Assembly: GCA_022711395.1 (NCBI GenBank)
Contig: JAKLFA010000002.1
Span: forward strand, 67,864-131,863
DNA length: 64,000 nucleotides
Reading direction: 5' to 3'
Source of the DNA: Candidatus Omnitrophota bacterium
GTDB taxonomy: Bacteria; Omnitrophota; Gorgyraeia; Zapsychrales; JANLHA01
How positions within the stretch are numbered: position 1 is the stretch's first letter; each line of letters opens with the position of its first letter. A program made the translations under genes and the position numbers. Shown in pieces: positions 1 through 46,683 of the stretch. The notes beneath the pieces are model-generated. The model saw only the letters and a list, made by a program, of their open reading frames with translations. It was not told where the DNA came from and searched no databases.

Positions 1-128
1 GGTTGGCTTTGCGCAGATTTAAGAGGTAGTTTGAGGTTCCTTATTCGAACACGAAGGTGTTTAACATAGATAAAAATAGACCTTAACAAATACTAAACCA
101 AAAATTATTTTTGGGAAGGAGAAAAACA

Positions 129-1047: not shown

Positions 1048-3375
1048 ATGACTTTTTTTCACCGTTTCATAAGTTCCGTTTTGCGTCATCCGTATCGCAC
1101 TCTTGCAGTTACGCTCATTTTTCTTGCCGTGTCGTTGGCCCTTTTTCCGCAGATCCGCATTGATGACAGCCTGGATGTTTTTTTTGATAAACACAGCCGG
1201 CATTTCATTGATTTCGAGGCCTGGAAAGAACAGTTCGGAAGCGATGAGCTGGTCATTGTGGGCCTGGCGACCGATGAGGTCTTCACTGTTGACAATTTAA
1301 ATTTGATCAAAACGCTTACGGAACAGTTTGAATCCCTGGAAGCGGTGGAGGACGTGACCAGCCTTTCAACGGTCAATCACGCTGTTGGAATGGGAGAGGA
1401 TTTTATTGTGGAACGCCTGATGGAAGGGCTTCCGCAAACGCCGCAGGAGATGGCGAGCCTTCGTCAGGAGGCGCTCGGAAACCCCTTGTATGTCCAGAAC
1501 GTCATTTCCAAAGACGGGAAAGTCGCCGCCCTGATCCTTGAGCTGGAATACGGGCTTGAGGGCGGTGCTCATAAAAAGAAGGTGATGGAAGGTGTCCAAA
1601 AGATCCTTAAAGCTGCGGCCCCTTCGGATGTGAGGTATTATGTCAGCGGGCTTACGGCGATCGAATATTATTACACCAAATATATGCAGGAAGACCTGAA
1701 ATCCTTCGGGCCGTTTATGTTCTTGATGGTGGCGTTCATCGTTTATTTAACGTTCCGGAAATGGCGGCTGGTCATTCTGCCGCTGTCGGCGATCCTGGCC
1801 AGCCTGGTCATGACCATGTCGCTGCTGGTCCTTTTCAAATTTTCGATCAATAATGTGACCACGATCATCCCGCCGATTCTTTTGGCCATCATGGTGGCCG
1901 ACAGCATCCACGTGATCGGCGAAGGGGTCGCGCGCAAACGCGCGATCAGGGACGGTTCAGAAAACGACAGCGTGTTTTTTGAAGAAACCATCCGTCATCT
2001 GCTGTTTCCGTGTTTTTTGACCAGCATCACGACCGCGGTAGGGTTTTGGTCTTTGACGATGAGCCGCATCCCGCCGGTCAAAGAGCTGGGGCTGGTCGTG
2101 GGGATCGGGGTGGCGTTCGCGTATCTTCTTACGTTCACATTTATGCCGGCGCTGGCCGTGGCGACCCGGGCCTTTAAAGGGGTCGGCCCGGAATCCGGCG
2201 AAAAAAAGATCAAGGGTTTTGACCGGCTCTTTGACCGTTTCCTTGAGGGGTTGGCGATTTTTAACGAACGTTTTGCCCGCTGGATCATTGTGGGCAGCGT
2301 GGTCTTGGTGGCCGTGTCCGTTTGGGGGATCAGCCGGCTGCGGGCGGAGACCAGCATTATTGAGGCGTTCCAAAAAAAGAGCGACATTTACCGTTCGACA
2401 GAATTTCTGGAAGACCATTTAAGCGGTGTTCATCCTTTGAATATTTCGCTGAAGGCGAAATCACCCGACGCCTTTTTGCATCCTGAAATGCTTAAGCGCA
2501 TTGAAGCCTTGAGCGCCTTTCTATACAGCATTGAGGAGGTGGACAAGGTCTCCTCGGTCAACGATTATTTGAAGGACATCAATCAATCGTTCCACAATGA
2601 GGATCCGGTGTTTTATGCATTGCCGGACACCAAAGAGATGGCGGCGCAGTATGTCCTTCTTTACGGAAGGGAAGACCTGGAGGATTTTGTGGATGAACAG
2701 TGGCAGTGGGCCACGGTGCGTGTGCGTCTAAAGGAACACAGCAGCGTGAAGCTTGAGCATGTGATCAAAAAGATCGATGAATATGTCCAAGAAAATTTTG
2801 CTGACCTTGAGGAGCGGAACACTTTAGGCCAAACGGTCCTGGAAGTGGACACGAATAACAGCGTGACCTTGGGCCAGGTCCAAAGCCTGGGAATGGCGAT
2901 GGCGGTGATCTTCGGGATGATGTTCTTGGTGTTCCGGTCCGTGCCGGTCGGGGTCGTGAGCATGGTCCCTAATATCCTGCCGATCCTTTTAAATTTCGGG
3001 ATCATGGGGATCTTTAACATCCGCCTGGATTCAGCCACCTCCATGATCGCGGCCATCGGCATCGGGATCGTGGTGGATGACACGATCCACTTTCTGCACG
3101 GGTTCGGTGAATTTTTAAGTGGGCATGGGGATTATACCAGGGCCATGCATGAGACGCTTAAGACGAGGGGCCGGCCGATCATTTTTACTTCGGTGGTCCT
3201 GTTCTTCGGGTTCGGGGTGGTGGGATTTTCGAAATTCATGCTCACGGCGTATTTCGGGATCCTGACGGCGCTTTTGATGTTCACAGCGCTGCTGGCGGAC
3301 CTGATGCTGACGCCGAGCCTTTTGATCGTGTTCAAACCCCCGTTTTGGAAGGGAGGGGATAAAGAAAATGACTGA
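1048..3375 (+). CDS. MMPL/RND-superfamily membrane transporter (sterol-sensing-domain type, HpnN-like lipid exporter)
   Basis: 775 aa with two 5-6 TM blocks separated by large soluble loops. MMPL-like motifs around the TM blocks (e.g. ...ADSIHVIGEG...; ...GIVVDDTIHFLHGF...). Confidence 0.75.
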   Translation: MTFFHRFISSVLRHPYRTLAVTLIFLAVSLALFPQIRIDDSLDVFFDKHSRHFIDFEAWKEQFGSDELVIVGLATDEVFTVDNLNLIKTLTEQFESLEAVEDVTSLSTVNHAVGMGEDFIVERLMEGLPQTPQEMASLRQEALGNPLYVQNVISKDGKVAALILELEYGLEGGAHKKKVMEGVQKILKAAAPSDVRYYVSGLTAIEYYYTKYMQEDLKSFGPFMFLMVAFIVYLTFRKWRLVILPLSAILASLVMTMSLLVLFKFSINNVTTIIPPILLAIMVADSIHVIGEGVARKRAIRDGSENDSVFFEETIRHLLFPCFLTSITTAVGFWSLTMSRIPPVKELGLVVGIGVAFAYLLTFTFMPALAVATRAFKGVGPESGEKKIKGFDRLFDRFLEGLAIFNERFARWIIVGSVVLVAVSVWGISRLRAETSIIEAFQKKSDIYRSTEFLEDHLSGVHPLNISLKAKSPDAFLHPEMLKRIEALSAFLYSIEEVDKVSSVNDYLKDINQSFHNEDPVFYALPDTKEMAAQYVLLYGREDLEDFVDEQWQWATVRVRLKEHSSVKLEHVIKKIDEYVQENFADLEERNTLGQTVLEVDTNNSVTLGQVQSLGMAMAVIFGMMFLVFRSVPVGVVSMVPNILPILLNFGIMGIFNIRLDSATSMIAAIGIGIVVDDTIHFLHGFGEFLSGHGDYTRAMHETLKTRGRPIIFTSVVLFFGFGVVGFSKFMLTAYFGILTALLMFTALLADLMLTPSLLIVFKPPFWKGGDKEND

Positions 3376-4282
3376 TCGTCAGCAATATCTTCATAACGAA
3401 GGTCTTTTTTATAAGAAGGCGTTTGAGCGCAATATCGGGATCCTGACCGAGGCGGAGCAGGAGAAACTGCGTCAGGCGCGCGTGGCCGTCGTGGGCTGCG
3501 GCGGCGTGGGAGGGGTGCATATCCTTAATGCGGTGCGCCTGGGCGTCGGGAATTTGAACATTGCCGATATGGACGTCTTTGATGTGGTCAACATTCAGCG
3601 CCAGTGCGGCGCGTATTTAGACACCATAGGCCGCAATAAGGCTGAGGTGCTGTGCGCGAGCGCGATGGCCGTCAATCCTTATGTGAAGGTCAAGACGTTT
3701 ATTGATGGGGTGTATGATGAGACCGTGGATGAGTTTTTGGAAGGGGTCGATCTGTTCATTGACGGCATTGATTTCTTTTGCATTGACATGAGGCGCCAGC
3801 TTTTTATGAGGGCCTATGAACTTGGGATCCCGGCGGTGACGGCCGGGCCGATCGGTTTCGGCAGTGCGCTTTTGGTGTTCATGCCCGGCGGGATGAGCTT
3901 TGACGAGTATTTTGATATCAGGGATGAGATGTCCTATGAGGAGAGGATGATCGCCTTCGCCGTGGGGCTCGCGCCGGCATCCGTTCATTTGAAATACATG
4001 AATCTGAAAAAGGTCGATGTCGCCAAGAAGACCGGGCCGGCGTTGGTCTCATCCTGCGGGCTGGCCAGCGCGCTGGTGATGACAGAGGTTCTTCGCATCC
4101 TTTTGCGCCGTCCGGGATTAAGGCCCGTGCCGCATTATCTGCAGCTGGACCCGTATCTTTCCGCCTACAAGTCCGGATATCTTTGGCTGGGGAATAAAAA
4201 TCCTGTTCAGCGTTTGAAACGGACGATCGTCAAGCGCATGCTGAAAAGGGAACACCGACATCACGGAGAAAGCCATGAATAA
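3368..4282 (+). CDS. ThiF/MoeB/HesA-family E1-like adenylyltransferase
   Basis: Rossmann motif VAVVGCGGVGGVHILNAVRLGVGNLNIADMDVFDVVNIQRQ. 304 aa. Overlaps the upstream MMPL gene by 8 nt (translational coupling). Confidence 0.7.
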   Translation: MTDRQQYLHNEGLFYKKAFERNIGILTEAEQEKLRQARVAVVGCGGVGGVHILNAVRLGVGNLNIADMDVFDVVNIQRQCGAYLDTIGRNKAEVLCASAMAVNPYVKVKTFIDGVYDETVDEFLEGVDLFIDGIDFFCIDMRRQLFMRAYELGIPAVTAGPIGFGSALLVFMPGGMSFDEYFDIRDEMSYEERMIAFAVGLAPASVHLKYMNLKKVDVAKKTGPALVSSCGLASALVMTEVLRILLRRPGLRPVPHYLQLDPYLSAYKSGYLWLGNKNPVQRLKRTIVKRMLKREHRHHGESHE

Positions 4283-5042
4283 ACGATATCTGTGCGTGCT
4301 GGCAATGGTATGGATGGTGTGCGCTGATGTTTCGGCGCAGACTTTGAGCGGGCCGGAGCTTGCGCAAATGATCTATGACCGGCCCGACGGGATGGACCGT
4401 TCCATGAACGTGGACATGGTCCTGGTGGACAAGAAGGGTAATGAGCGGCCGCGCACGCTGGTGCTGTTCGCCAGGGATGAGGGTCCGCTGGCCAAAACGT
4501 ATCTGGAGTTTTTGACGCCGGAGGATATCAAGGCCACGAAATTCCTTTCCATGGAACAGGCCCAGGGTGATGATATCCAGTATCTTTACCTTCCGGCGCT
4601 GGGAAGGGCCAGACGCATCGTGAGCAGCCAGAAAAATCTGCGTTTTGTGAACACGGATTATACCTATGAGGATATGCAAAGGCGCAAGCCTTCCGAGGAT
4701 GAACACCAGATCCTCCGTGAAGAAATTTATAACGGCCGGCCGTGTTACGTGCTTGAAAGTGTTCCGGTCTCCGCGAATTCACAGTATGGCCGCCGGGTAA
4801 GCTGGGTGGACAAGTTCAGCCTGGTGGCGCTGCATACGGACTTTTATGATAAAAAGGGGCGTTTGGTCAAAGTCTTTGAGGTCCTTTCCATGAAAGTGGT
4901 GGATGGGTTTTGGACGGTCATCAAGAGCCGGATGGAAGATCTTGAAGAGGCGCATCAGACGTTGATGACCGTGACGGAAGTCCGTTACGACCAGGGGATC
5001 GAGGGCGCAAAATTTGAGCTGCGCGCGCTGGAACAGCGATAG
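4275..5042 (+). CDS. LolA-like outer-membrane lipoprotein-sorting family protein (periplasmic lipid carrier partner of MMPL transporters)
   Basis: Signal peptide MNKRYLCVLAMVWMVCADVSAQ. About 230-aa mature beta-rich protein. Gene position directly downstream of MMPL, where LolA-like (PF17131-type) partners are typically found. Overlaps ThiF by 8 nt. Confidence 0.45.
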   Translation: MNKRYLCVLAMVWMVCADVSAQTLSGPELAQMIYDRPDGMDRSMNVDMVLVDKKGNERPRTLVLFARDEGPLAKTYLEFLTPEDIKATKFLSMEQAQGDDIQYLYLPALGRARRIVSSQKNLRFVNTDYTYEDMQRRKPSEDEHQILREEIYNGRPCYVLESVPVSANSQYGRRVSWVDKFSLVALHTDFYDKKGRLVKVFEVLSMKVVDGFWTVIKSRMEDLEEAHQTLMTVTEVRYDQGIEGAKFELRALEQR

Positions 5043-6587: not shown

Positions 6588-7028
6588 ATGGGATCTCAGC
6601 ACTTAGAGCGATTACGACAGGTCATTTCAAGCGATCAGCGCCGCTGTGAACGCATAGAGCTTCCGTTGAAGATGCTGTATGCGTCCCAGCCTGGCCATGG
6701 AGGCCAACTGGATTGGAAGGGGCCGGTATTGCTGGATAATATCGGCGGGGAAGGGATCGGATTTAATTCCAAGGACCTGATACAGGAAAATGAGGAGCTT
6801 TTGATCCGGATGTATCTGCCGGATGATGACTTGCCGGCGGTCTTTATCGGCAAGGTGGTCTGGGCGAAAGAGGACCCGTCTGCCAAGCGCTGCGGCTGCC
6901 GGGAATATTCTTACGGGATCCATATTGAAAAATATGATCCGCAGACTGAGGCCAGGTTCATGGGGTTCATGTCCGATCAAATTCTGGGAAAATACCTTGA
7001 TGAGTCAGGGGATCTAAAGGACATTTAA
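6588..7028 (+). CDS. PilZ-domain (c-di-GMP-binding) protein
   Basis: RRCERIEL (RxxxR) followed by DNIGGEGIGF (D/NxSxxG-like), the two PilZ signature motifs. Confidence 0.55.
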   Translation: MGSQHLERLRQVISSDQRRCERIELPLKMLYASQPGHGGQLDWKGPVLLDNIGGEGIGFNSKDLIQENEELLIRMYLPDDDLPAVFIGKVVWAKEDPSAKRCGCREYSYGIHIEKYDPQTEARFMGFMSDQILGKYLDESGDLKDI

Positions 7029-7034
7029 GGACAA

Positions 7035-7880
7035 ATGAATATGATGTTAGAACATGCCGGCATGCGCTCGATATTCAGCGGGATCGAATACCGTGTTGCG
7101 CGCAGCAGAGATGAATTGGCCCAGGCCTTTCATCTGGTCTATGAAGAATATCTGAAACAGGGCTACATTCATGAACATCCGTCGAAAATGCGGCTGTCTT
7201 TGCATAATCTGGTTCCTGAAACAACGACATTCATCGCCAAAGTGGATTCAACGGTTGTAGCGACGGCGACAGTCATCCCGGATTCGCCGCTGGGCTTGCC
7301 GATGGACGAGCTTTATCGGGAGGAACTCGCCGGTTTGCGCGACTCAGGAGAGAGGCTTTGCGAGGTTTCCATGCTCGCGCACAGCAGCGATCTTCTCAGT
7401 GACAAGGTCCCGTTGATGTTCAACGCCAAAAAGATGTTCCTGATCTTTTTCCTGTTCAAGCACGTCTTTGACTACGCGGTGCAGGAAGAAGCGCTGGATT
7501 ATATCTGTATCACGGTCAATCCGAAGCACTCGGCGATCTATGATTCGCTTTTGTTCAAGAACCTGGATGACCAGGTCAAGTATTACGGGAAGGTCAACGG
7601 CGCTCCGGCGATCGCCAAGGTCCTGAACCTTTCAACGATCGAGCAGGAATCCGCTCTGTCCAAACGGCATAATATGCACAAAATGTTCTTCAGCGGCAGG
7701 ACCGATCCCCGCCGTTTTGATGAAAAGTTCCGTTTCGGTATCGATGATATCAAATATTTTTTTGTGGACCAGGTCAACGCATTTGAAAACGCCAGTAAAG
7801 ATGAGGTCCGGTATATCATGGACGCATATCCCGAATATGATCTGAGCGGGATCATTCCCTTGCACATGATAAGGCCGTGA
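7035..7880 (+). CDS. N-acyl amino acid synthase-like GNAT acyltransferase (FeeM/OlsB-like; PEP-CTERM-system-associated acyltransferase family)
   Basis: 281 aa. N-terminal AQAFHLVYEEYLKQGYIHEHP...TTTFIAKVDSTVVATATVIP matches the autoinducer-synthase-like GNAT pattern of N-acyl amino acid synthases. 7 nt downstream of PilZ and 31 nt upstream of the ligase fusion. Confidence 0.5.
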   Translation: MNMMLEHAGMRSIFSGIEYRVARSRDELAQAFHLVYEEYLKQGYIHEHPSKMRLSLHNLVPETTTFIAKVDSTVVATATVIPDSPLGLPMDELYREELAGLRDSGERLCEVSMLAHSSDLLSDKVPLMFNAKKMFLIFFLFKHVFDYAVQEEALDYICITVNPKHSAIYDSLLFKNLDDQVKYYGKVNGAPAIAKVLNLSTIEQESALSKRHNMHKMFFSGRTDPRRFDEKFRFGIDDIKYFFVDQVNAFENASKDEVRYIMDAYPEYDLSGIIPLHMIRP

Positions 7881-7911: not shown

Positions 7912-10908
7912 ATGCTGCATTCATCTCAACAGATCTTTGAGGTTTTCCGCGACGGGGCGCAAAAGGCGGGTGAGAAGGACGCGCTGTTATACAAGCAGAA
8001 GGCCCATTATGAGTCGATCAGCTATATCGCCCTCCTGAGGCAGGCGGCCGCCTTTGCCCGTGTTCTGCATAACCATCAGATCTCTCCCGGCGACAAGGTT
8101 GCGCTGGTCCTTGAGAACAGGCCGGAGTTCGCCGGTGCCGTGATGGCGGTCTGGGCTTGCGGGGCGGTGGCGGTCCCGTTGGACGTCCAATATTCCACCC
8201 TTGAGATCAAAACGCTTTTGAAACATTCTCAGGCCAGGCTGGTGGTCTCTCAGCAGCGGCTTTTCCATCTTCATGAGGAATTGCGTTCGATCTGCCCTTG
8301 GCTGACCGTGGATGACCCGGATCTGAAATATCATTTGCGCGAAGCTGCGGGGTCCGCCCGGGCGGTCGAGTTGGAGCATTCTCCGGCGGTTGACCTGGCG
8401 GCGTTGTTCTACACGTCAGGGACGACGGGAGAGCCCAAGGCGGTCATGCTCAGCCACGCGAATATCCTTTCGAATGTGAGGGCGTTCCATCAGCTTGAGA
8501 TCGCTTCTTCCAAAGACGTGGTCGTTTCGGTCCTGCCGTTGCATCACACCTACGCGTTTACGACGACACTGTTATATCCGCTTTTGATCGGGGCCACGGT
8601 CAGTTATCCAAAGAGCATCGCTTCCGTGGACCTTTTGTCCTGCATCAGGGAGACGTGCGCCACGGTCTTTGTCGGAGTGCCGCAGATCTTCAAGCATATG
8701 CATAAGGCCGTGGTCGACCGTATTGGAGGGATGAAGGCCCTGAAGCGTTCGATGGTGCTTGCCGCCGGAGAGCTTTGCATGAATTCCCGCAAGGTCCTGG
8801 GGGCCAATCCCGGGCGGGTTCTTTTTTCGCAGATCCACCATCAATTCGGGCCGTCGTTGCGCCTGATGGTCTCCGGCGGGGCGAAGCTGGACCCGGAGAT
8901 TTCCAGGGATTTTTATCGCTGGGGATTTTCTTTGATCGAGGGTTATGGCCTTACGGAGACATCACCGGTCGTTTCTTTTTCACTGCCCAATCAGGCGAAG
9001 TTCGGTTCCGTCGGAAGGGTGATCCCGGGAGTCGGGGTGGATATCAAGGACCCTGACGCGGCCGGTATCGGTGAGGTCCTGGTCAAAGGCCCTAATGTGA
9101 TGATGGGTTATTACAGGAACCAGGCCGAGACGGACCGGGTCCTTTATGACGGATGGTTCCATACGGGGGACCTGGGATATATCGACCGGGATGGATTTCT
9201 TTTTTTGACCGGCCGCAGCAAAGAGATCTTGGTCTTGGAGAACGGGGAGAACATCAATCCGGAGGAGCTGGAAAATTATTATGGCCAGAATCCCTTTATC
9301 AAGGAGATCGCGGTCCTTTCTTTTAAGGCTGAGCGTTCCTCGGGGGTCACGGCCGAAAAGCTTGTGGCGTTGATCGTCGCTGACCAGGACCATTTTTTGG
9401 CCCAGAAGGAAACGAATATCAAGGCCAGGATCAAATGGGAACTTGAGAACATGTGCGTGCACATGCCCAGTTATAAGAGGGTGACCGGATTTGAGGTTTC
9501 GCAGGAAGAGCTGCCCCGCACCAGGCTGGGGAAATTACGGCGTTTTGAGCTGCCCGAGATCTATGCCCGCCTTCGTGAGCGGTCGCAGGTCAAACAAAGG
9601 GTGCAGATCGTCGAGCCGGTGGAGGGGCGTTCTGAGCTGTTTGATCAGGCGCTGGGTTATCTCGAGGACGCGGTGGGCCGCCCCGTGGGCCTTAAGGAGC
9701 ATTTGGAACTGGACGTCGGGCTGGACTCGTTGGGCCGCATGGAGCTTTTGCTGGGGCTTCAGGAAAAGCTGGGTTTGAGCCTGACAGAGGAACAGTCGAT
9801 GCAGTTCTTTGTTTGCGTGACGGTCGAAGATCTTTTGGATAAGTTGAGGGAATTTTCAGCGTCGCTGCCCAGCGGGATCGCGGTGGATGAGGATGCCAAG
9901 ATCCTGAGCGGACTTTCGGCCGGCAGGGAGAATTTCGCGGTGGTGGCTGAGCGAGCGAAGTCCTTTTTGCGAGAGGCCCTGAACCGTGAATCGATCCAGG
10001 AGTCCGATCATTTGGAGCTGGACCTGGGGCTTGATTCGCTGGGGCGGATGGAAGTCCTTTTGAGCCTTCAGGAGCGTCTGGGGTTGACCATGTCGGATGA
10101 GCAGGCGGTGGGATTTTTCATGGCTTCGACGGTCGCGGAACTTCTTGAGAACCTTAAAAAAGAATTGCCCCGGATGCAGGAGGGCTCCGGCGCAAAGGCG
10201 TTCATGTGGTCGGATATCTTAAGACAGGATCCCGACGCTGACAAACTTAAGCGCATCAACACGGGGGACTTCAGCCTGCCCGCCCGTTTGTTCAATGTCG
10301 CGGGATGGTGTTTTTTCCGCGCCTTTTTTAAGTTGTTCTACCGGTTGAAGGTGGAGGGTCTTGAGAACGCAAACACCGAGGGTCCGTTCTTGATCTGTTC
10401 GAATCACACGACCTATTTTGATGCGTTGATTATTTTAAGCGCGTTGCCGTTCCGGAAATTTTTGCAGGTGTTCTTTTTGGGGGACAGCAAGTTCCTTAAC
10501 CATCCCGTGCTTCGTCCGTTCGGCCGGGCCGCCAGATTTATTCCGATCGAATTCACGCATAACATGGTGGAGGCGTTAAAGGTCTGCGCGTATGTCTTGC
10601 GGAATCAAAAAATCGTTTGTTACTTTCCGGAAGGGCAGCGGTCGATCGATGGGGAGGTGAAGGAATTCCGCAAAGGGGTGGGGGTCCTTGTTAAAGAGTT
10701 GGGAGTGCCGGTCCTGCCGGCGTTTATCAGCGGGGCTTTTGAATGCTGGCCACGCGGGCAGCGGTTTCCCAAATTGTTTGGCAACGTCACGTTGCGTTTT
10801 GGTAAAATGACCTCTTCAAAAGAGCTTCTTTTCCGGGTTTTTGACGCGGAGGATGATTATGAGCAAACCGCTGAGAACTTACGGATCCGCGTCTCATCTT
10901 TGAAGTAA
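7912..10908 (+). CDS. Multidomain fusion: fatty-acid AMP-ligase (acyl-ACP synthetase-like) - ACP - ACP - 1-acyl-glycerol-3-phosphate/lyso-lipid acyltransferase (PlsC/OlsA family)
   Basis: Adenylation motifs YTSGTTGEPKAV, GYGLTET, GWFHTGDLGY. Two phosphopantetheine sites LELDVGLDSLGRMELL (~nt 9715) and LELDLGLDSLGRMEVL (~nt 10020). C-terminal acyltransferase motifs CSNHTTYFD (HX4D) and FPEGQRS. Confidence 0.8.
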   Translation: MLHSSQQIFEVFRDGAQKAGEKDALLYKQKAHYESISYIALLRQAAAFARVLHNHQISPGDKVALVLENRPEFAGAVMAVWACGAVAVPLDVQYSTLEIKTLLKHSQARLVVSQQRLFHLHEELRSICPWLTVDDPDLKYHLREAAGSARAVELEHSPAVDLAALFYTSGTTGEPKAVMLSHANILSNVRAFHQLEIASSKDVVVSVLPLHHTYAFTTTLLYPLLIGATVSYPKSIASVDLLSCIRETCATVFVGVPQIFKHMHKAVVDRIGGMKALKRSMVLAAGELCMNSRKVLGANPGRVLFSQIHHQFGPSLRLMVSGGAKLDPEISRDFYRWGFSLIEGYGLTETSPVVSFSLPNQAKFGSVGRVIPGVGVDIKDPDAAGIGEVLVKGPNVMMGYYRNQAETDRVLYDGWFHTGDLGYIDRDGFLFLTGRSKEILVLENGENINPEELENYYGQNPFIKEIAVLSFKAERSSGVTAEKLVALIVADQDHFLAQKETNIKARIKWELENMCVHMPSYKRVTGFEVSQEELPRTRLGKLRRFELPEIYARLRERSQVKQRVQIVEPVEGRSELFDQALGYLEDAVGRPVGLKEHLELDVGLDSLGRMELLLGLQEKLGLSLTEEQSMQFFVCVTVEDLLDKLREFSASLPSGIAVDEDAKILSGLSAGRENFAVVAERAKSFLREALNRESIQESDHLELDLGLDSLGRMEVLLSLQERLGLTMSDEQAVGFFMASTVAELLENLKKELPRMQEGSGAKAFMWSDILRQDPDADKLKRINTGDFSLPARLFNVAGWCFFRAFFKLFYRLKVEGLENANTEGPFLICSNHTTYFDALIILSALPFRKFLQVFFLGDSKFLNHPVLRPFGRAARFIPIEFTHNMVEALKVCAYVLRNQKIVCYFPEGQRSIDGEVKEFRKGVGVLVKELGVPVLPAFISGAFECWPRGQRFPKLFGNVTLRFGKMTSSKELLFRVFDAEDDYEQTAENLRIRVSSLK

Positions 10909-11019: not shown

Positions 11020-11874
11020 ATGATCTTAAAGCGCGGTTTTTCTGTGATGCGGTCCTCTGTAGTGACGTTGATCCAAAATCCCGGTATTCTGTATCCATAT
11101 GCGATCGTAGGGATCCTTCAGTTGTTCATTCTTGAGATCCTTTTTTTCATGCCCCGGTATCCGCTTATTCAGATCTTTGGGCCGATGATCCTGGCGCTTA
11201 AGAAGTCGCCATTTTTCTTGCATTACCCCTTTAATTTTGAAGTGGTGAACAGTTGGTTCCAGTCCCTGCAGGTGCCCTTCTATGTTTTTGTGCAGATCCT
11301 TTTTGTGGCCAAGGCTGTTCTGATCGTTCAAAAGACCGAACAGCGTCAGGCGGTGGAATCAATGCCGAAGGTCGCTTTTGGAAAATATGTGAATCTTGTG
11401 GTGGGGGCGGCGATCATTATCGGGCTGATGTATGCGTTCAATTACGGCTATTCGTTCTTGATCCGCAGGGCTGTTCAGATCCGTTCGACGTCGGGCCTTT
11501 ACTTTTTGATCAAGCAGGCCGTGATCCTGGGTGGGCCGTATATCAATTTGATGGTCTCGGCTTTTATCACGGCGTGCTTCGCTTATGTGATCCCGCTCAT
11601 CGCGATCGAAGGGGACAATGTCTTCAAGGCGGTTTTTCGGAATTTCAAATTGCTTAAAGGCGATTTTTTTGTCTTACTGGCTTTTTTGACGGTCGCGGCA
11701 TTGTGCTTTGTGCCGTTCCTTCTGGTGAAAACGAATGAGATCGCGATCCGTTCGATGATGACGCCTGAAGGCTGGCAGATGATCACGATCTTGGGCGCGG
11801 GGCTGATCCTTTTGATCGACGCTCTGCAGTATACAGGAATAACGATTGTATATCTCAAAAAGGATAGATCATGA
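11020..11874 (+). CDS. Polytopic membrane protein, unknown function
   Basis: 284 aa with about 7 hydrophobic helices. No recognisable catalytic motif. Confidence 0.5.
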   Translation: MILKRGFSVMRSSVVTLIQNPGILYPYAIVGILQLFILEILFFMPRYPLIQIFGPMILALKKSPFFLHYPFNFEVVNSWFQSLQVPFYVFVQILFVAKAVLIVQKTEQRQAVESMPKVAFGKYVNLVVGAAIIIGLMYAFNYGYSFLIRRAVQIRSTSGLYFLIKQAVILGGPYINLMVSAFITACFAYVIPLIAIEGDNVFKAVFRNFKLLKGDFFVLLAFLTVAALCFVPFLLVKTNEIAIRSMMTPEGWQMITILGAGLILLIDALQYTGITIVYLKKDRS

Positions 11875-12779
11875 AAAAAACACTCCTCGTTCTGGTCGGT
11901 CTGTTGGTTGCGGTCTATGTCGTCCTGACGTTGGTGGATACCAAATCAGAATATCTGCTGGAGAAAAAGCTTTGGCGGATCCAGAAAGATTTTGTGGCGA
12001 TCGCGCAGGACCCGAAAGCTGCGCCGGATAATCAGTATAAAGAAGCGATCGCCAAATACAGGGCGCTGATCCAGAAATACCCTAAGGCACGGCTGACGCC
12101 TCAGATGTATTTTCAGATCGGCCGTCTTGAAGAGATGCGGAAGAATTTTGACGGGGCGCGGGCGGTCTTTAAGGAGGCTTCGGAGGCGTTTAAGGATAAT
12201 TCATCGATCGTTTCAGACGCGATGTATCGGGTTGGACTTTCTTTCGAACAGGAGGGAAAGATCAATGATGCGATCGCGATCTACCGGGAGATCGGACGGG
12301 TATTTTCACGGACGCAGATCGGGTTTTCGATGCCGATCTATATTGCCAGTATTTATCGACGTTTAGGGGACCCGGTCAAGCAGAATCAGGCGCTTGCTGA
12401 GGCGGAAACGTTTTATCGGGCGATCCTTTCCGAGACGGAAGATGGATCAGCCTCTCAACTGGAGGTTTTGCGGGCCTTAACGACCGCTTTGCTGGGGCAG
12501 CAAAAATGGGGTGAGGCGTATCAAACTCTTGAGAGAACGTTGTTTTCTTTCGCCAGGTCCAAGCATTTGAGGCCGCAGGCTGCTGGAGGGATCGTTCGGA
12601 CCTTGAGCGTTGTGGGGGCTGGGCAACTGAATGACATGCCCAGGGTAATGAAGACCCTGGAAACTTTCAAGGAGCAGAATCCGGGCCATCCGCTGAACGC
12701 CTATCTTGAGCAGATCAAAGCGTCTCTTCAACAGATGAAGCAGGAAGAAAAGAAGGCGGCGGTCGTCGGGAATGAATAA
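11871..12779 (+). CDS. Membrane-anchored TPR-like repeat protein
   Basis: N-terminal TM LLVLVGLLVAVYVVLTLV, then helical-repeat (TPR-like) sequence. Start overlaps the previous gene by 4 nt and the end overlaps the kinase gene by 8 nt. Confidence 0.5.
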   Translation: MKKTLLVLVGLLVAVYVVLTLVDTKSEYLLEKKLWRIQKDFVAIAQDPKAAPDNQYKEAIAKYRALIQKYPKARLTPQMYFQIGRLEEMRKNFDGARAVFKEASEAFKDNSSIVSDAMYRVGLSFEQEGKINDAIAIYREIGRVFSRTQIGFSMPIYIASIYRRLGDPVKQNQALAEAETFYRAILSETEDGSASQLEVLRALTTALLGQQKWGEAYQTLERTLFSFARSKHLRPQAAGGIVRTLSVVGAGQLNDMPRVMKTLETFKEQNPGHPLNAYLEQIKASLQQMKQEEKKAAVVGNE

Positions 12780-14085
12780 AGGGATGAGCCAGGATCATAT
12801 TCAGCAACTGACCGAGTCGGATCTGTTCAAGCAGGTCAGTGATATCTGCGCTGTGGTCAATACGGTCACCGATGTTCAACAGCTTCTGGAAGTGTCTTTA
12901 TCACGCACGCTTAGATTGTTTGGGGCCCGTCGGGGGTCTGTGTTCATCATGGATGAGAACACGAAATGCCTGCTTTTGAAAGCGGCTGAAGGCCTGCAGC
13001 AGACCGAGGTCAATCAGATGATGAAGCGCATCGGTGAGGGCGTGGTGGGTCGGGTCGCCGAGCAGAAGATCCCGATCGTGGTTGAGAATATTGAGACGGA
13101 TGAACGCTTTGTGAACTATCGAGCCCGCAAAAGTTATCAAACGCCGTCTTTTATTTGTGCGCCGCTGCTCATTAAGGACCATCTGATTGGAGTGATCAAT
13201 ATCACCGATAAATTGAGCGGGGCGGGTTTCGGAAGGGCGGATCTTCAGCTTCTGGATTTTTTGGCGATGCAGATCGCTTTGAATTACCGGCGTATTGAGC
13301 TGTATGAACGGTTCCGGTCGATCCTCAAACGCTCAGAAGAGCTCAAAAACGAGCTTGGCAAAAGCAGTCAGGAAACGACGAAATTGCGCCGGCAGATCAT
13401 CGCTCATGAGCGGCTTGCCACCGTGGGAAAAATGGCTGGCGGGATCGCCCATGAGTTCAACAATCCGCTGGATGGTGTTTTAAGGTATACCAACCTGTGT
13501 TTAAAACAGGTCGGCGATGATGAGGTGATCCGCAGTTATCTTTTGGAGATCAAGAACGGTTTGAACCGGATGACGACCATTGTCCGGAATTTGCTGGCGT
13601 GCTCCCGGCGCTCCGAAAAACCCCTGCAGATGATTCGGCCGGATGTGGTGGTCGACCAGGCGATCCAGGCGGTGCAGTCCGAAGCGCAGCATAAAAACGT
13701 TCGTATTGAGAAGGAAGTCGGGCCCGGCTTGCCGGATTTGAAAGACCTGGGATTGGAAAGCATTTTGGTGAATCTTTTGCGCAACGCTGTCGATGCCCTT
13801 AAACCAGGCGGGCTTGTTAAGATCTCTGCGGTTCATTTAGAGCACAACGGGCATGTTGTTTTTCAAGTGGCGGACAATGGACCGGGCATTCCGGATTCGG
13901 AAGATCCGAGCAAAATTTTTGAGCCGTTCTATACGACTAAGGATATGGAGAAGGGTTGCGGTCTGGGTTTGACCATTGTTTCCGAGATCGTTAAGAGCTA
14001 TCAGGGGCAGATCCAGGTTGAGAGCGCTCCCGGAGAGGGCGCGACATTTATTGTTACTATTCCGATTGAAACGAGGGACCTATGA
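12772..14085 (+). CDS. Soluble GAF-domain sensor histidine kinase
   Basis: GAF region with ...GRVAEQKIPIVVENIETDERF.... HisKA H-box IAHEFNNPL. HATPase N/G boxes NLLRNAVDAL and DNGPGIP...GLGLTIV. Confidence 0.75.
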   Translation: MNKGMSQDHIQQLTESDLFKQVSDICAVVNTVTDVQQLLEVSLSRTLRLFGARRGSVFIMDENTKCLLLKAAEGLQQTEVNQMMKRIGEGVVGRVAEQKIPIVVENIETDERFVNYRARKSYQTPSFICAPLLIKDHLIGVINITDKLSGAGFGRADLQLLDFLAMQIALNYRRIELYERFRSILKRSEELKNELGKSSQETTKLRRQIIAHERLATVGKMAGGIAHEFNNPLDGVLRYTNLCLKQVGDDEVIRSYLLEIKNGLNRMTTIVRNLLACSRRSEKPLQMIRPDVVVDQAIQAVQSEAQHKNVRIEKEVGPGLPDLKDLGLESILVNLLRNAVDALKPGGLVKISAVHLEHNGHVVFQVADNGPGIPDSEDPSKIFEPFYTTKDMEKGCGLGLTIVSEIVKSYQGQIQVESAPGEGATFIVTIPIETRDL

Positions 14086-15485
14086 AGTCGATTGACAAGC
14101 GCAACTATGATATTTTGATCGTTGATGATGAACCGTTGATCCGCCAGTCGCTTTTTGAGATCTTACGGATCGAGGGGTATCACGCTCATATGTCGCAGAG
14201 TGCGGAAGAAGCCTTGAATTTTTTAGCGGAGCAAAAGGTCGATATTGTCCTTACTGACATGAAATTGCCGCAAAAGAGCGGCCTGGAACTTTTGGAAGAG
14301 GTCAAGAAGATCACCCCGGATACGGAAGTCATTCTGATCACGGGGTTTGGTTCGATCGAGTCAGCCGTTGAGGCGATCCGCAAGGGCGCCTATGATTATA
14401 TTTGCAAGCCGATCAATGATGAAGAGATCAAATCCCGTATTCAGAAGATCATTGAACATAAAGAGATCGTTGCTGAGAACCTGCGGCTGCGCGAAATGCT
14501 GGCCAAGTCCAATCCAACTTCCTGCGGCCAGATGATCGGTTCCAGTGCCAAGATGCAAAAGGTCTATCATGTGATCGAGTCTGTGGCGACTTCGAATGCC
14601 ACGATCCTCATCACGGGGGAAAGCGGGACGGGAAAGGGTTTGGCCGCCCGGGCGATCCATCAGATGGATGAGAACCGCTGTGATAAGCCTTTTGTGGAAG
14701 TCAGCTGCGGGGCGCTTTCAGAAACGCTGCTTGAAAGTGAGCTTTTTGGGCATGTTAAGGGGGCGTTCACGGGGGCTATTCGTGATAAAGAGGGCCGCTT
14801 TGAGTATGCCCGCGGGGGGACGATTTTTTTGGATGAAATTGATGCATTTTCTCCCATGCTTCAGGTCAAACTTTTACGGGTTTTGCAGGATGGGGTCTTT
14901 GAGCGGGTGGGGGATAACGTGACCCGTAAGACGGATGCCAGGATCATTGTAGCGACGAATCGCCCTTTGACGGAACTTGTTGAAAATGGCGAGTTTAGGG
15001 AAGACTTGTATTACCGTATTAATGTGATTTCGATCGTGATGCCGCCTTTGAGGGAGCGGAAAGAGGATCTGGATATTTTGATCAAACATTTTCTTGAGAA
15101 ATATGCTAAGAAAAATGGCAAGAAAATTGCTGGTATATCGGATGAAGTTCGGACCATGTTTTTGAACTATAAATGGCCCGGAAATATCCGGGAACTGGAA
15201 AACGCTGTTGAAGGCGCTGTGATCATGTCCAAAGCGGACGCCATCCAAAAGTGGGATGTTCCCAATTCTTCCAAGTTTGATGAGGCAAAGAAGCGCGTGA
15301 CGGCCATGAAGATCGGCCGTTCGTTAAAGGAGGTCATGGAGCAGCCTGAGCGGGATGTTATTCTGGCGGCTCTGGAACAAAACGCTTGGAACCGCAATAA
15401 AGCGGCATCCGCGTTGGGGGTCAATCGGACGACCTTGTATAACAAGATGAAAAAATATAATATTGAGTTCAAAAAGCCAAAATAA
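14082..15485 (+). CDS. Sigma-54-dependent NtrC-family response regulator (PrsR-like)
   Basis: REC domain ILIVDDEP...[13 protein letters not shown]+ Walker [15 protein letters not shown] sigma-54 contact motif. C-terminal HTH. Overlaps the kinase stop by 4 nt. Confidence 0.85.
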
Positions 15486-37657: not shown

Positions 37658-37658
37658 A

Positions 37659-46364: not shown

Positions 46365-46683
46365 AATGTTTTGTATGTGATAGTGAGATCAGGACGTTTC
46401 CGTCAAACTCGTGTTCCAGAAAATGGCAGACGGGCTTTCCGTTTGCGTCATTGACGATCTTGATCGCTTTCCAGTTGACAAAGGCGCGGTCACCCAGCGC
46501 TTTAAAGACCGCTTCTTTAGCCGCGAAACGCGCCGCGTAATGCTGATATGGGTCTGTATGTTTCTGAGCGTAGGCGATCTCTTCTTCACAGAAAATGCGT
46601 TTGAGAAAATCATCTCCCCATCGCTCAATGGATTCTCGGATGCGCTCAACCTCAACGATGTCCGTGCCGATCCCGATGATCAT
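46327..46683 (-). CDS. acpS: Holo-[acyl-carrier-protein] synthase
   Basis: [15 protein letters not shown]...; 118 aa. Confidence 0.85.

What the first reader, a model, noticed from the sequence alone, without database searches (positions are those of the whole stretch)
7912..10908. Unusual single-polypeptide architecture: adenylating ligase + tandem ACPs + PlsC-type acyltransferase
E. coli Aas is acyltransferase(N)+acyl-ACP-synthetase(C) and borrows the cellular ACP. Here the order is reversed and two ACP domains (DSL motifs at ~nt 9727 and ~10036) are inserted in cis. This implies free fatty acid is activated to acyl-AMP, then held as an in-cis acyl-S-pantetheine, then transferred to a lyso-lipid by the C-terminal HX4D domain. 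That would be a fully self-contained lipid re-acylation or lipid A/aminolipid acylation machine. acpS (46327-46683) is present in the genome to phosphopantetheinylate it.
Basis: seen in the sequence. Interest (0 to 1): 0.75.

Follow-up and report, generated by a model that had tools for sequence, protein, structure and literature searches.

The report
Fused fatty-acid ligase, carriers, acyltransferase

Summary
ORF 7912-10908 (+) is one uninterrupted 998-aa protein: ANL ligase (1-559), ACP1 (Ser606, nt 9727), ACP2 (Ser709, nt 10036) and a PlsC-type acyltransferase (NHTTYFD 831-837). An identical protein occurs in independent assemblies, so it is not a frameshift artefact. The architecture is less unusual than claimed. 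Ligase-ACP-acyltransferase proteins form at least 264 clusters (50% identity) across many phyla, and the literature already notes them as 'ElbD-like homologues lacking the reductase domain'. None has been characterised. Most have one ACP, a small clade including this protein has two, and one member has three. The ligase lacks the FAAL insertion. The main new finding is context. In 10 of 10 loci of a 99%-bootstrap clade, a FeeM/OlsB-type N-acyl amino acid synthase gene sits 1-64 bp upstream. A conserved unknown membrane protein, TPR protein, GAF kinase and PrsR-like sigma-54 regulator lie downstream. LolA-like plus MMPL or MacB exporters, a ThiF-like enzyme and PEP-CTERM proteins lie nearby, with exosortase/EpsI in one relative. 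Sister lineages pair the gene with MFS/LplT-like transporters instead. Best reading: an Aas-like re-acylation enzyme recruited into an OlsB/OlsA-like aminolipid pathway. The product is unknown.

The parts
7912..10908 (+). Whole gene: 998-aa ligase-ACP-ACP-acyltransferase
7912..9588 (+). ANL-superfamily fatty-acid adenylating ligase domain (residues 1-559); motifs YTSGTTGEPK 167-176, GYGLTE 344-349, TGD 418-420, GR 434-435, catalytic K541; no FAAL insertion
9634..9861 (+). ACP1 (residues ~575-650); phosphopantetheine-attachment Ser606 at nt 9727-9729; the inserted copy, present only in the closest relatives
9934..10176 (+). ACP2 (residues ~675-755); Ser709 at nt 10036-10038; aligns with the single ACP of most family members
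10207..10908 (+). PlsC/LPLAT-family acyltransferase domain (residues ~766-998): long hydrophobic/amphipathic helix 789-810, HX4D (H832-D837, nt 10405-10422), FPEGQR 905-910
7035..7880 (+). [quoted passage not shown]
   Evidence: Pfam FeeM 4e-36; PDB 2G0B FeeM 1.3e-18; synteny
11020..11874 (+). Conserved 284-aa polytopic membrane protein of unknown family (PRYPL...LHYP signature), always downstream
11871..12779 (+). TPR (YbgF/CpoB-like) protein, start overlaps the preceding stop; syntenic in relatives
12772..14085 (+). Histidine kinase (GAF domains inferred from the syntenic genes in relatives; weak PrsK similarity, 85.8 bits against a 300 cutoff)
14082..15485 (+). Sigma-54-dependent response regulator, PrsR-like (TIGR02915 417.6 bits, cutoff 502.6)
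15485..16516 (+). Protein with only a weak match to the NifA GAF region, syntenic with PocR/GAF genes in relatives
6588..7028 (+). PilZ-domain protein
   Evidence: also present in L081
5068..6495 (+). DUF1302 protein
4275..5042 (+). LolA-like (PF17131/DUF1329) periplasmic lipid-carrier-like protein
   Evidence: conserved
3368..4282 (+). ThiF-family E1-like adenylyltransferase (PRK08223, 364 bits, above the 266 cutoff)
   Evidence: ThiF also in L081, L082, L084, L089
1048..3375 (+). MMPL/HAE3-type RND transporter (replaced by a MacB-type ABC exporter in most relatives)
111..941 (+). PEP-CTERM sorting-signal protein (PepA-like)
46327..46683 (-). acpS, holo-ACP synthase (candidate but unproven priming enzyme; unlinked to the locus)

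Best explanation
The gene encodes a self-loading acyl-transfer enzyme. Shown from sequence: an ANL-type ligase with all catalytic motifs, two tandem acyl-carrier domains each with a DSL serine, and a membrane-interfacial PlsC-family acyltransferase with intact HX4D and FPEGxR motifs. Inferred mechanism: the ligase adenylates a free fatty acid and thioesterifies it onto the pantetheine arm of ACP1 or ACP2, and the acyltransferase domain moves the acyl group from that arm onto a hydroxyl of a membrane lipid acceptor. Evolutionary inference: the protein belongs to a widespread ligase-ACP-acyltransferase family (ElbD-like without the reductase; Aas-like with reversed order and a built-in carrier) whose basal lineages pair with MFS/LplT-like transporters. 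That pairing suggests an ancestral role in re-acylating imported lysolipids. [quoted passage not shown] Inferred pathway in this organism: the in-cis acyl-ACPs are the dedicated acyl donors. The NAS uses them in trans to N-acylate an amino acid, and the acyltransferase domain adds a second acyl chain. This mirrors the OlsB/OlsA and GlsB/GlsA two-step aminolipid pathways. The adjacent LolA-like/DUF1302/MMPL system (MacB ABC plus LolA-like in relatives) would move the product towards the outer membrane. The whole unit sits in a PEP-CTERM/exosortase-type locus under a PrsR-like sigma-54 two-component system. The second ACP is a recent duplication. It probably raises flux or lets the NAS and the acyltransferase be served at the same time. 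The amino acid, the acyl chain and the exact acceptor are unknown.
For: Domains and invariant catalytic residues. Ligase-to-carrier loading in a protein with the same core (ElbD) was shown in vitro, per review PMC9131029. The fold search's best hit is an A-PCP didomain. The upstream gene is a FeeM-type NAS, and FeeM-type enzymes use acyl-ACP from a dedicated carrier (Van Wagoner & Clardy 2006, as cited). The window has no stand-alone ACP gene; the only credible pantetheine-attachment motifs are the two in-cis ones. The NAS sits 1-64 bp upstream in all eight loci where the gap was measured (window, L081-L087), and also directly upstream in L089 and L090. The NAS-linked proteins form one clade with 99/100 bootstrap support, nested among MFS-linked members. 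Two-step aminolipid synthesis by an N-acyltransferase plus a PlsC-like O-acyltransferase is the established pattern (review PMC11631085). LolA-like plus MMPL or MacB exporter genes are conserved beside the pair. For the PEP-CTERM link: a PEP-CTERM protein in the window, a PrsR-like regulator, exosortase plus EpsI in L090, and the published NAS/PEP-CTERM association (Craig et al. 2011, as cited).
Against: There is no biochemical evidence for any member of the ligase-ACP-acyltransferase family lacking a reductase, and ElbD's own acyltransferase activity could not be detected in vitro. The acyltransferase domain resembles Aas-type (93 bits) and AGPAT-type (56 bits) acyltransferases more than OlsA (23 bits against a 300 cutoff). 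O-acylation needs a hydroxyl, either on a 3-hydroxy fatty acid or on a Ser/Thr/Tyr head group, and nothing here shows that one exists; characterised FeeM-type products are simple N-acyl amino acids. The roles of the ThiF-like enzyme, the PilZ protein and the conserved membrane protein are unexplained. No exosortase lies within the 64-kb window, and the window starts at the PEP-CTERM gene, so the upstream side is unseen. The regulators fall below the curated PrsK/PrsR cutoffs.
Confidence: 0.5

Rival explanations
1. Aas-like phospholipid repair. The protein re-acylates lysophospholipids such as 2-acyl-lyso-PE or lyso-PG, using scavenged free fatty acid held on its own ACPs, independently of the neighbouring NAS.
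For: The acyltransferase domain alone scores best against the LplT-AT-Aas fusion family PRK08633 (93 bits), and the whole protein scores 266.6 bits against it. The closest solved structure is T. maritima PlsC, 5KYM. Sister lineages have an MFS transporter directly upstream, with overlapping start and stop codons in L005 and L007 (L005, L007, L016, L091). One has an LplT-acyltransferase fusion downstream (L013: 493 bits to PRK08633, 128 bits to LplT). Others sit next to a GDPD or an alpha/beta-hydrolase. The MFS-linked members are the outgroups of the NAS-linked clade, so this is probably the ancestral function.
Against: In this clade the MFS partner is absent, and a NAS gene is invariably 1-64 bp upstream (10 of 10 loci) together with exporters rather than importers. 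All scores are far below the Aas equivalog cutoffs (266.6 against 1221). The MFS proteins in L005 and L007 are generic or ATG22-like, not LplT by NCBIfam.
Confidence: 0.28
2. ElbD-type ether-lipid biosynthesis. As an ElbD homologue, the protein takes part in making alkyl or alkenyl glycerol ether lipids, which is how BLAST-based surveys have read Omnitrophota 'ElbD homologues'.
For: It has the same ACS-ACP-AGPAT core and order as ElbD. ElbD homologues were reported in 93 of 267 Omnitrophota MAGs from the Black Sea and read as ether-lipid potential (bioRxiv 10.1101/2024.06.25.600576).
Against: There is no reductase (FAR1/NAD_binding_4) domain: the AMP-binding domain starts at residue 13. No elbB, elbC, elbE or AGPS-like genes appear in this locus or in the ten related loci. 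No ElbD-sized proteins appear among the 150 best ACP+AT matches. The same preprint notes that Pontiella carries ElbD homologues yet makes no detectable ether lipids.
Confidence: 0.04
3. Lipid-anchor supply for PEP-CTERM proteins. The NAS, the ThiF-like enzyme and this protein build an amino-acid-containing lipid that exosortase attaches to PEP-CTERM proteins after cleaving their C-terminal anchor. The Lol-like (MacB ABC plus LolA-like) or MMPL/DUF1302 system then moves the lipidated proteins outward.
For: The pair co-localises with PEP-CTERM proteins and with exosortase plus EpsI (L090). MacB-type ABC plus LolA-like genes resemble the LolCDE/LolA lipoprotein pathway. The NAS/PEP-CTERM linkage is already published and unexplained. 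From my own knowledge, the related archaeosortase and rhombosortase systems do attach lipids.
Against: This is purely contextual. The substrate of exosortase transpeptidation is unknown, no exosortase lies in this window, and the exporter could just as well carry a free lipid.
Confidence: 0.1
4. The ligase activates the NAS product rather than a plain fatty acid. The N-acyl amino acid's free carboxylate is adenylated and loaded on the ACPs, and the acyltransferase then esterifies the N-acyl-aminoacyl group onto a lipid or polysaccharide hydroxyl.
For: The gene order NAS -> ligase-ACP-AT and the tight coupling fit this, and N-acyl amino acids are fatty-acid-like carboxylates.
Against: The ligase's closest families are fatty-acid and acyl-ACP ligases. 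MFS-linked sister lineages have no NAS yet keep the same ligase. The co-encoded ThiF-like enzyme is a more obvious candidate for activating that carboxylate.
Confidence: 0.06

Closest known systems
ElbD (MXAN_1528) of Myxococcus xanthus, the multifunctional ether-lipid enzyme (Lorenzen et al. 2014; reviewed in PMC9131029)
   Same: One polypeptide carries an acyl-activating ligase, an in-cis ACP and a C-terminal AGPAT/PlsC-like acyltransferase, in the same order. Ligase-to-ACP loading was shown in vitro for ElbD. The review states that ElbD-like homologues in other phyla almost all lack the FAR1 domain, which is the core architecture found here.
   Different: This protein has no N-terminal FAR1-like reductase, two ACPs instead of one, and no elbB/C/E or AGPS neighbours. 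[quoted passage not shown] There is no evidence for ether lipids.
E. coli Aas (2-acyl-GPE acyltransferase / acyl-ACP synthetase) and the LplT-AT-Aas fusions (NCBIfam PRK08633)
   Same: A fatty-acid-activating ANL ligase is coupled to an HX4D acyltransferase through an acyl-ACP intermediate. The acyltransferase domain's best family match is PRK08633. Sister lineages of this protein pair with MFS/LplT-like transporters, as aas pairs with lplT.
   Different: The domain order is reversed (ligase first) and the carrier is built in, twice, rather than borrowed. Scores are far below the equivalog cutoffs. In this clade the transporter partner is replaced by a NAS plus exporters.
OlsB/OlsA, GlsB/GlsA and OlsF aminolipid pathways (review PMC11631085)
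   Same: A GNAT-superfamily N-acyltransferase (the superfamily that includes FeeM) is encoded next to, or fused with, a PlsC-family O-acyltransferase. Both use acyl-ACP donors.
   Different: Known systems draw on housekeeping acyl-AcpP and have no dedicated ligase or in-cis carrier. Similarity to OlsA is weak (23 bits). The NAS here is FeeM-type rather than OlsB-type in the window, although relatives score on both Pfam models.
FeeM/FeeL and the PEP-CTERM-linked N-acyl amino acid synthases (Van Wagoner & Clardy 2006; Craig, Cherry & Brady 2011)
   Same: A FeeM-type NAS works with a dedicated carrier protein encoded in the same cluster. The genetic linkage of NAS genes to PEP-CTERM/exosortase loci is reproduced here.
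   Different: Here the dedicated carrier is embedded in a ligase-ACP-ACP-acyltransferase. I could not read Craig et al. (not held in the library), so I cannot say whether they noted such a neighbour.
FAAL-ACP loading modules and tandem-ACP megasynthases (for example PUFA synthases; myxobacterial Pfa3 with a terminal AGPAT domain)
   Same: Adenylation is followed by transfer to an in-cis carrier. Tandem identical-type ACPs occur. In Pfa3 an AGPAT domain off-loads directly from ACP to a lysolipid (my own knowledge).
   Different: There is no FAAL-specific insertion, and there are no ketosynthase or other chain-building domains.

Membership tests
ElbD (myxobacterial ether-lipid enzyme) | N-terminal FAR1-like fatty acyl reductase domain | tested here: not met
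   Pfam finds only AMP-binding, AMP-binding_C, PP-binding x2 and Acyltransferase. AMP-binding starts at residue 13.
ElbD (myxobacterial ether-lipid enzyme) | ACS - ACP - AGPAT-like acyltransferase core, in that order, on one chain | tested here: met
   ElbD's domain description comes from PMC9131029.
ElbD (myxobacterial ether-lipid enzyme) | elb operon partners (elbB HAD-like, elbC, elbE NAD-epimerase-like) or AGPS nearby | tested here: not met
   None appear in window 1-26000 or in the ten related loci.
ElbD (myxobacterial ether-lipid enzyme) | Required for alkyl/alkenyl ether lipid formation | not testable with these tools
   This needs lipid analysis.
Aas (bifunctional acyl-ACP synthetase / 2-acyl-GPE acyltransferase) | Acyltransferase N-terminal and ligase C-terminal, with no in-cis carrier | tested here: not met
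   The order is ligase - ACP - ACP - acyltransferase.
Aas (bifunctional acyl-ACP synthetase / 2-acyl-GPE acyltransferase) | Passes the curated equivalog score (PRK08633, PRK06814, PRK08043) | tested here: not met
   266.6 against 1221 and 221.6 against 1349. The AT domain alone scores 93.3, 54.5 and 40.7 bits.
Aas (bifunctional acyl-ACP synthetase / 2-acyl-GPE acyltransferase) | Genetic coupling to the lysophospholipid transporter LplT | tested here: not met
   The locus has no MFS gene. Coupling to MFS or LplT-AT genes is seen only in sister lineages: L005, L007, L013, L016, L091.
FAAL (fatty acyl-AMP ligase) | FAAL-specific insertion of about 20 residues in the N-terminal domain | tested here: not met
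   114 query residues spanning motifs A5-A8 align with 118-121 residues of MenE, FadD5, MatB and luciferase, so there is no extra segment.
FAAL (fatty acyl-AMP ligase) | Transfers the acyl-adenylate to a carrier-protein pantetheine rather than to CoA | not testable with these tools
   The architecture implies it (carriers directly downstream), and ElbD in vitro data support it.
PlsC/LPLAT acyltransferase superfamily | HX4D catalytic motif and FPEGxR(S/T) motif | tested here: met
   NHTTYFD 831-837 and FPEGQR 905-910, invariant in 17 homologues. PF01553 8e-24. PDB 5KYM 6.6e-13.
OlsB/OlsA-type two-step aminolipid pathway | N-acyltransferase gene of the OlsB/FeeM GNAT group adjacent to a PlsC-family O-acyltransferase | tested here: met
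   FeeM 4e-36, 31 bp upstream. Relatives' upstream genes hit both PF21926 and PF13444.
OlsB/OlsA-type two-step aminolipid pathway | O-acyltransferase recognisable as OlsA | tested here: not met
   NF052553 (lyso-ornithine lipid O-acyltransferase) scores 22.9 bits against a 300 cutoff.
OlsB/OlsA-type two-step aminolipid pathway | A hydroxyl on the N-acyl intermediate (3-hydroxyacyl) that receives the second acyl chain | not testable with these tools
   This requires the product structure.
PEP-CTERM/exosortase-associated NAS locus (Craig et al. 2011) | PEP-CTERM protein gene(s) in the locus | tested here: met
   111..941: PF07589 7.7e-06, 26.2 bits against a 20.7 cutoff; PepA-like 1.8e-16.
PEP-CTERM/exosortase-associated NAS locus (Craig et al. 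2011) | Exosortase (EpsH/Xrt) gene in the locus | tested here: inconclusive
   No exosortase was found among the scanned ORFs of the window, but the window begins at the PEP-CTERM gene. The relative L090 has Exosortase_EpsH plus EpsI about 5 kb upstream of the NAS.
PEP-CTERM/exosortase-associated NAS locus (Craig et al. 2011) | PrsK/PrsR two-component regulators | tested here: inconclusive
   The regulator scores 417.6 bits against a 502.6 cutoff for TIGR02915, and the kinase 85.8 against 300 for TIGR02916.

The most novel reading that the evidence does not exclude
The NAS, the ThiF-like adenylating enzyme and this ligase-ACP-ACP-acyltransferase together make a dedicated amino-acid lipid that is the long-sought acceptor or anchor onto which exosortase transfers PEP-CTERM proteins. 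The co-encoded Lol-like (MacB/LolA-like) or MMPL/DUF1302 machinery then delivers the lipidated cargo to the outer membrane. This would explain why NAS genes track PEP-CTERM systems and would define what exosortases attach their substrates to.
Probability: 0.1. Interest if true: 0.9.

Novelty: new variant of a known kind. Interest (0 to 1): 0.52.

Why it matters
There are three reasons. (1) The family is large, spans many phyla and has never been characterised. It packs fatty-acid activation, carriage and transfer into one chain, so it is a tractable single-protein model for how acyl-ACP is channelled into membrane lipids, and for how bacteria that scavenge fatty acids build lipids. (2) The invariant NAS -> ligase-ACP-AT operon gives the long-known but unexplained link between N-acyl amino acid synthases and PEP-CTERM/exosortase loci a concrete biosynthetic partner and a testable product: an exported, possibly diacylated aminolipid. 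(3) It is a caution for environmental lipid genomics. BLAST 'ElbD homologues' in Omnitrophota and other phyla are being read as ether-lipid capacity, but this family lacks the reductase domain and sits in a quite different pathway context.

Tried and rejected
(a) Frameshift or fusion artefact: rejected. An identical protein occurs in independent assemblies, and more than 150 relatives are collinear.
(b) FAAL identity: rejected, because there is no insertion.
(c) Sigma-54 -24/-12 promoter search (TGGCAC-N5-TTGCW, up to 2 mismatches): 18 hits against 29.7 expected by chance, so it gave nothing.
(d) The downstream membrane protein as a hidden exosortase: rejected. The alignment of 11 copies has no invariant Cys or Arg, and there is no Pfam or NCBIfam hit.
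(e) A tree of ACP domains to time the duplication: unresolved, because the domain is too short. One apparent 'extra ACP' in P0044 was a spurious motif match inside the ligase.
(f) tblastn of the window's FeeM, ThiF, LolA-like, DUF1302 and MMPL proteins against 80 genome loci: no hits next to the distant homologues apart from one unrelated divergent ThiF gene in L006. This showed that the NAS context is clade-specific.
(g) Literature: Craig et al. 2011 (PMC3187218) is not held. Full-text searches for a characterised ligase-ACP-acyltransferase/NAS system, and for Omnitrophota plus PEP-CTERM, found nothing relevant.
(h) The word-index homologue search for the membrane protein found only 4 relatives, so I did not attempt a structure prediction for it.
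(i) The first bootstrap script timed out and was redone.
(j) Lipid A acylation: I found no supporting context.

Full report
1. THE OBSERVATION

The ORF list shows one uninterrupted reading frame at 7912..10908 (+), 998 aa. Pfam places AMP-binding at residues 13-401 (2e-81), AMP-binding_C at 452-541, two PP-binding domains, and Acyltransferase PF01553 at 811-940 (8e-24). Scanned separately, each carrier segment passes the Pfam cutoff.

The two ACPs are 49% identical over 71 residues (E 1e-23), so they arose by tandem duplication. The acyltransferase carries NHTTYFD (H832...D837) and FPEGQR (905-910).

In a 17-sequence alignment spanning 37-78% identity, every catalytic motif is invariant. These are the ligase motifs YTSGTTxxPK, GYGLTE, TGD, GR and the A10 lysine K541, the ACP2 serine, HX4D and FPEGxR.

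A 100% identical protein is held by NCBI, JGI and ENA on three contigs and is annotated only as 'AMP-binding protein [Candidatus Omnitrophota bacterium]'. The fusion is therefore real and not an assembly or frameshift artefact.

An AlphaFold2 model (mean pLDDT 76.4) shows four folded units separated by disordered linkers at 560-573, 651-672 and 759-763. That gives boundaries of 1-559, about 575-650, about 675-755 and about 766-998, with a long helix at 789-810 ahead of the catalytic core. Foldseek against the PDB returns an A-PCP didomain (McyG, 4R0M) and ANL CoA ligases, and no solved structure covers ligase-carrier-acyltransferase. The acpS gene is at 46327..46683, but on the minus strand.

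2. HOW UNUSUAL THE ARCHITECTURE IS

The word-index search returned thousands of hits, and nearly all of the best 120 share AMP-binding + PP-binding + Acyltransferase. An exhaustive HMMER search with only ACP2 plus the acyltransferase (329 aa) against 1.84 billion representatives found 264 clusters at E <= 1e-30. The best 150 are overwhelmingly proteins of 860-940 aa matched at residues ~570-890, which means ligase-ACP-acyltransferase.

A scan of one genome per species found the full architecture in many lineages: Omnitrophota, Methylomirabilota, Nitrospirota, Planctomycetia, Dissulfurispiraceae, a deltaproteobacterium, Spirochaetota/Leptospirales, Wallbacteria, a Fusobacterium, Kiloniellaceae, Gammaproteobacteria and Fibrobacteraceae.

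By motif count, 137 full-length members have one ACP, 15 have two (the closest relatives of the query), and one (P0019) has three. The tandem ACP is therefore a variable, clade-level feature.

The literature already notes this core. ElbD of Myxococcus xanthus is FAR1-like reductase + ACS + ACP + AGPAT-like acyltransferase, and 'ElbD-like homologues' in other phyla 'almost all lack a FAR1 domain' (PMC9131029). No reductase-less member has been characterised. For ElbD itself, only the ligase and carrier activities were shown in vitro.

3. DOMAIN-LEVEL TESTS

FAAL insertion: the 114 residues spanning motifs A5-A8 align with 118-121 residues in MenE, FadD5, MatB and luciferases. The query is slightly shorter, and there is no room for the ~20-residue FAAL insertion. 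The ligase's best families are long-chain fatty-acid ligases and Aas.

Acyltransferase: scanned alone, it scores 93 bits on PRK08633 (LplT-AT-Aas fusions), 56 on TIGR00530 (AGPAT), 41 on E. coli Aas and 23 on OlsA. Its closest solved structure is T. maritima PlsC. All these scores are far below the curated equivalog cutoffs, so the protein is not a member of any curated family.

4. CONTEXT, THE MAIN NEW RESULT

The gene 31 bp upstream (7035..7880) is a FeeM-type N-acyl amino acid synthase (Pfam 4e-36; PDB 2G0B 1.3e-18). Further upstream, in the same orientation and often with overlapping stop and start codons, lie:
- a PilZ protein
- DUF1302
- a LolA-like protein
- a ThiF-family enzyme that passes the PRK08223 cutoff
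- an MMPL/HAE3 RND transporter
- a PEP-CTERM protein

Downstream lie:
- a 284-aa membrane protein with no family assignment
- a TPR protein
- a histidine kinase
- a sigma-54 response regulator that scores 418 bits on the PrsR model (cutoff 503)
- a protein with a weak match to the NifA GAF region

I looked up contigs for eleven relatives. Counting the window, ten loci at 39-100% identity share the same core. One or two NAS genes (hitting FeeM and/or the OlsB-type Acetyltransf_5 model) lie directly upstream, at 1-64 bp in the eight loci where I measured the gap. Then come ligase-ACP(n)-AT, the ~290-aa membrane protein, the TPR protein, a GAF kinase, a sigma-54 regulator and PocR/GAF. Nearby are a LolA-like gene plus either MMPL or a MacB-type ABC exporter, often ThiF, and PEP-CTERM proteins.

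In L090, an Exosortase_EpsH gene and EpsI lie about 5 kb upstream. This reproduces, with a new partner, the published association of NAS genes with PEP-CTERM/exosortase loci (Craig et al. 2011, as cited).

The window contains no stand-alone ACP; the only credible pantetheine-attachment motifs are the two in-cis ones. It also contains no exosortase, but it begins at the PEP-CTERM gene, so the upstream side is cut off.

5. THE WIDER FAMILY HAS A DIFFERENT CONTEXT

The NAS and exporter genes are absent next to the distant homologues. What sits there instead:
- an MFS (ATG22-like) transporter directly upstream in L005, L007, L016 and L091, with overlapping start and stop codons in L005 and L007
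- an LplT-acyltransferase fusion downstream in L013 (493 bits to PRK08633, 128 bits to LplT)
- a glycerophosphodiester phosphodiesterase in L010
- an alpha/beta-hydrolase in L005 (also in L088, per the precomputed Pfam calls)
- inositol-monophosphatase-family genes in L009 and L014

An NJ tree (28 proteins, 876 columns) groups all NAS-linked proteins with L001, which keeps the downstream membrane-protein gene. This clade has 99/100 bootstrap support and is nested among MFS-linked members. The simplest history is an Aas/LplT-like lysolipid re-acylation enzyme with a built-in carrier that one lineage, mostly Omnitrophota, recruited into a NAS/exosortase locus.

6. MECHANISM

Shown: the domain content, their order and the intact catalytic motifs.

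Inferred from established enzymology of ANL ligases, carrier proteins and PlsC-family enzymes, and from ElbD in vitro data:
- The ligase converts a fatty acid plus ATP to acyl-AMP.
- The acyl group is loaded as acyl-S-pantetheinyl-ACP1 or ACP2.
- The HX4D domain transfers it to a lipid hydroxyl at the membrane surface.

Inferred from context:
- FeeM-type NAS enzymes need acyl-ACP from a dedicated carrier, and the only carriers in the locus are in cis. The ACPs therefore probably also feed the NAS in trans.
- The acyltransferase domain would then play the OlsA/GlsA role in a two-step aminolipid pathway.
- The LolA-like/MMPL (or MacB) system would export the product.
- The second ACP may raise flux or allow both acyl-accepting enzymes to be served at once.

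I put this at about 0.5. The main rival is Aas-like lysophospholipid repair independent of the NAS (about 0.28). It is supported by the acyltransferase's sequence affinities and by the sister lineages, but it does not explain the invariant NAS coupling. An ether-lipid role like ElbD's is unlikely (about 0.04): there is no reductase and there are no elb or AGPS partners. Two more speculative readings are given as rivals: a lipid anchor for PEP-CTERM proteins, and the ligase activating the N-acyl amino acid itself.

7. WHAT REMAINS UNEXPLAINED

- The roles of the ThiF-like enzyme are unknown. NCBIfam PRK14852 is a fusion of a FeeM-like and a ThiF-like domain, and a ThiF-family TcdA-like gene also sits in the planctomycete stieleriacine NAS/PEP-CTERM cluster.
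- The function of the conserved membrane protein (invariant PRYPL...LHYP) is unknown.
- The role of the PilZ protein is unknown.
- The amino acid and acyl-chain specificities are unknown.
- It is unknown whether AcpS or an Sfp-type enzyme primes the carriers.

8. VERDICT

This is a new variant of a known but uncharacterised kind. The variant features are the tandem ACPs and the NAS/exosortase-locus recruitment. It has moderate interest, and it carries a useful caution: 'ElbD homologues' counted in Omnitrophota and elsewhere need not indicate ether-lipid synthesis.

Noticed in passing
window 11020-11874 (+); syntenic copies L081:12077-12937, L082:12001-12870, L083:12026-12898, L084:12432-13310, L085:11786-12658, L086:12122-13009, L087:10890-11759, L089:10282-11130: A polytopic membrane protein of about 285 aa with no Pfam or NCBIfam match always follows the ligase-ACP-AT gene in the NAS-linked clade. 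It has an invariant PRYPL...LHYP signature, Y123, K165 and P192, and no conserved Cys/Arg, so it is not an obvious exosortase. It is probably a functional partner from an undescribed family.
   Followed up: partly
window 3368-4282 (+): This ThiF-family E1-like gene passes NCBIfam PRK08223. NCBIfam PRK14852 is a 989-aa fusion of a FeeM-like N-terminus with a ThiF-like domain, and the planctomycete stieleriacine NAS/PEP-CTERM cluster also carries a ThiF-family (TcdA-like) gene (PMC7293339). This is a recurrent NAS-ThiF link whose chemistry is unknown; it may involve activating the N-acyl amino acid's carboxylate.
   Followed up: partly
P0019 / L089:7001-10201: One family member has three tandem ACPs (serines near 601, 686 and 772) in the same NAS/exporter context. 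Across the family, ACP copy number runs 1, 2, 3. P0039 instead carries an N-terminal MOSC domain.
   Followed up: partly
L005:7131-8372, L007:103-1335, L016:8157-9821, L091:5627-6925, L013:12785-14704: Sister lineages of the family have an MFS (ATG22-like) transporter gene directly upstream, overlapping the fused gene's start in L005 and L007. In Wallbacteria an LplT-acyltransferase fusion lies directly downstream. This looks like an LplT/Aas-type arrangement with a built-in ACP.
   Followed up: partly
L090:527-2030: Exosortase_EpsH and EpsI genes lie about 5 kb upstream of the NAS/ligase-ACP-AT pair in a 39%-identical relative, with Bac_transf and a PEP-CTERM protein between them. The window starts just where these genes would be expected.
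   Followed up: partly
literature: bioRxiv 10.1101/2024.06.25.600576: A blastp survey counts 'ElbD homologues' in 93 of 267 Omnitrophota MAGs as ether-lipid potential. The Omnitrophota proteins seen here lack the reductase domain and sit in a NAS/exosortase context, so such counts probably overstate ether-lipid capacity.
   Followed up: partly
L005 (labelled Methanosarcinales archaeon); P0015 (labelled Bathyarchaeia archaeon): Full-length or near-full-length family members sit in MAGs labelled as archaea. This may be binning contamination or horizontal transfer.
   Followed up: no
window 35553-36962 (+), 37551-39005 (+), 38998-40428 (-), 40446-41177 (-): This is a cluster of two PMT_2-type (ArnT/dolichyl-phosphate-mannose-like) membrane glycosyltransferases and two GT2-type glycosyltransferases, one with AglJ-like similarity. 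It may be a lipid-linked glycosylation module.
   Followed up: no
window 60472-63879 (-): A 1135-aa ORF has only a weak HEAT/CpcE-like repeat match. It lies in a region where GC falls from about 0.55 to 0.42 and the GC skew changes sign.
   Followed up: no
window 54877-58976 (-): A fused trehalose-6-phosphate synthase/phosphatase (GT20 + Trehalose_PPase, 777 aa) sits next to a GH15/trehalase-like gene. Housekeeping genes seen elsewhere in the window include valS, nadC, citramalate synthase, aspartate kinase, homoserine dehydrogenase, gpsA, recN, ftsH and a probable pdxJ (by inspection only) next to acpS.
   Followed up: no
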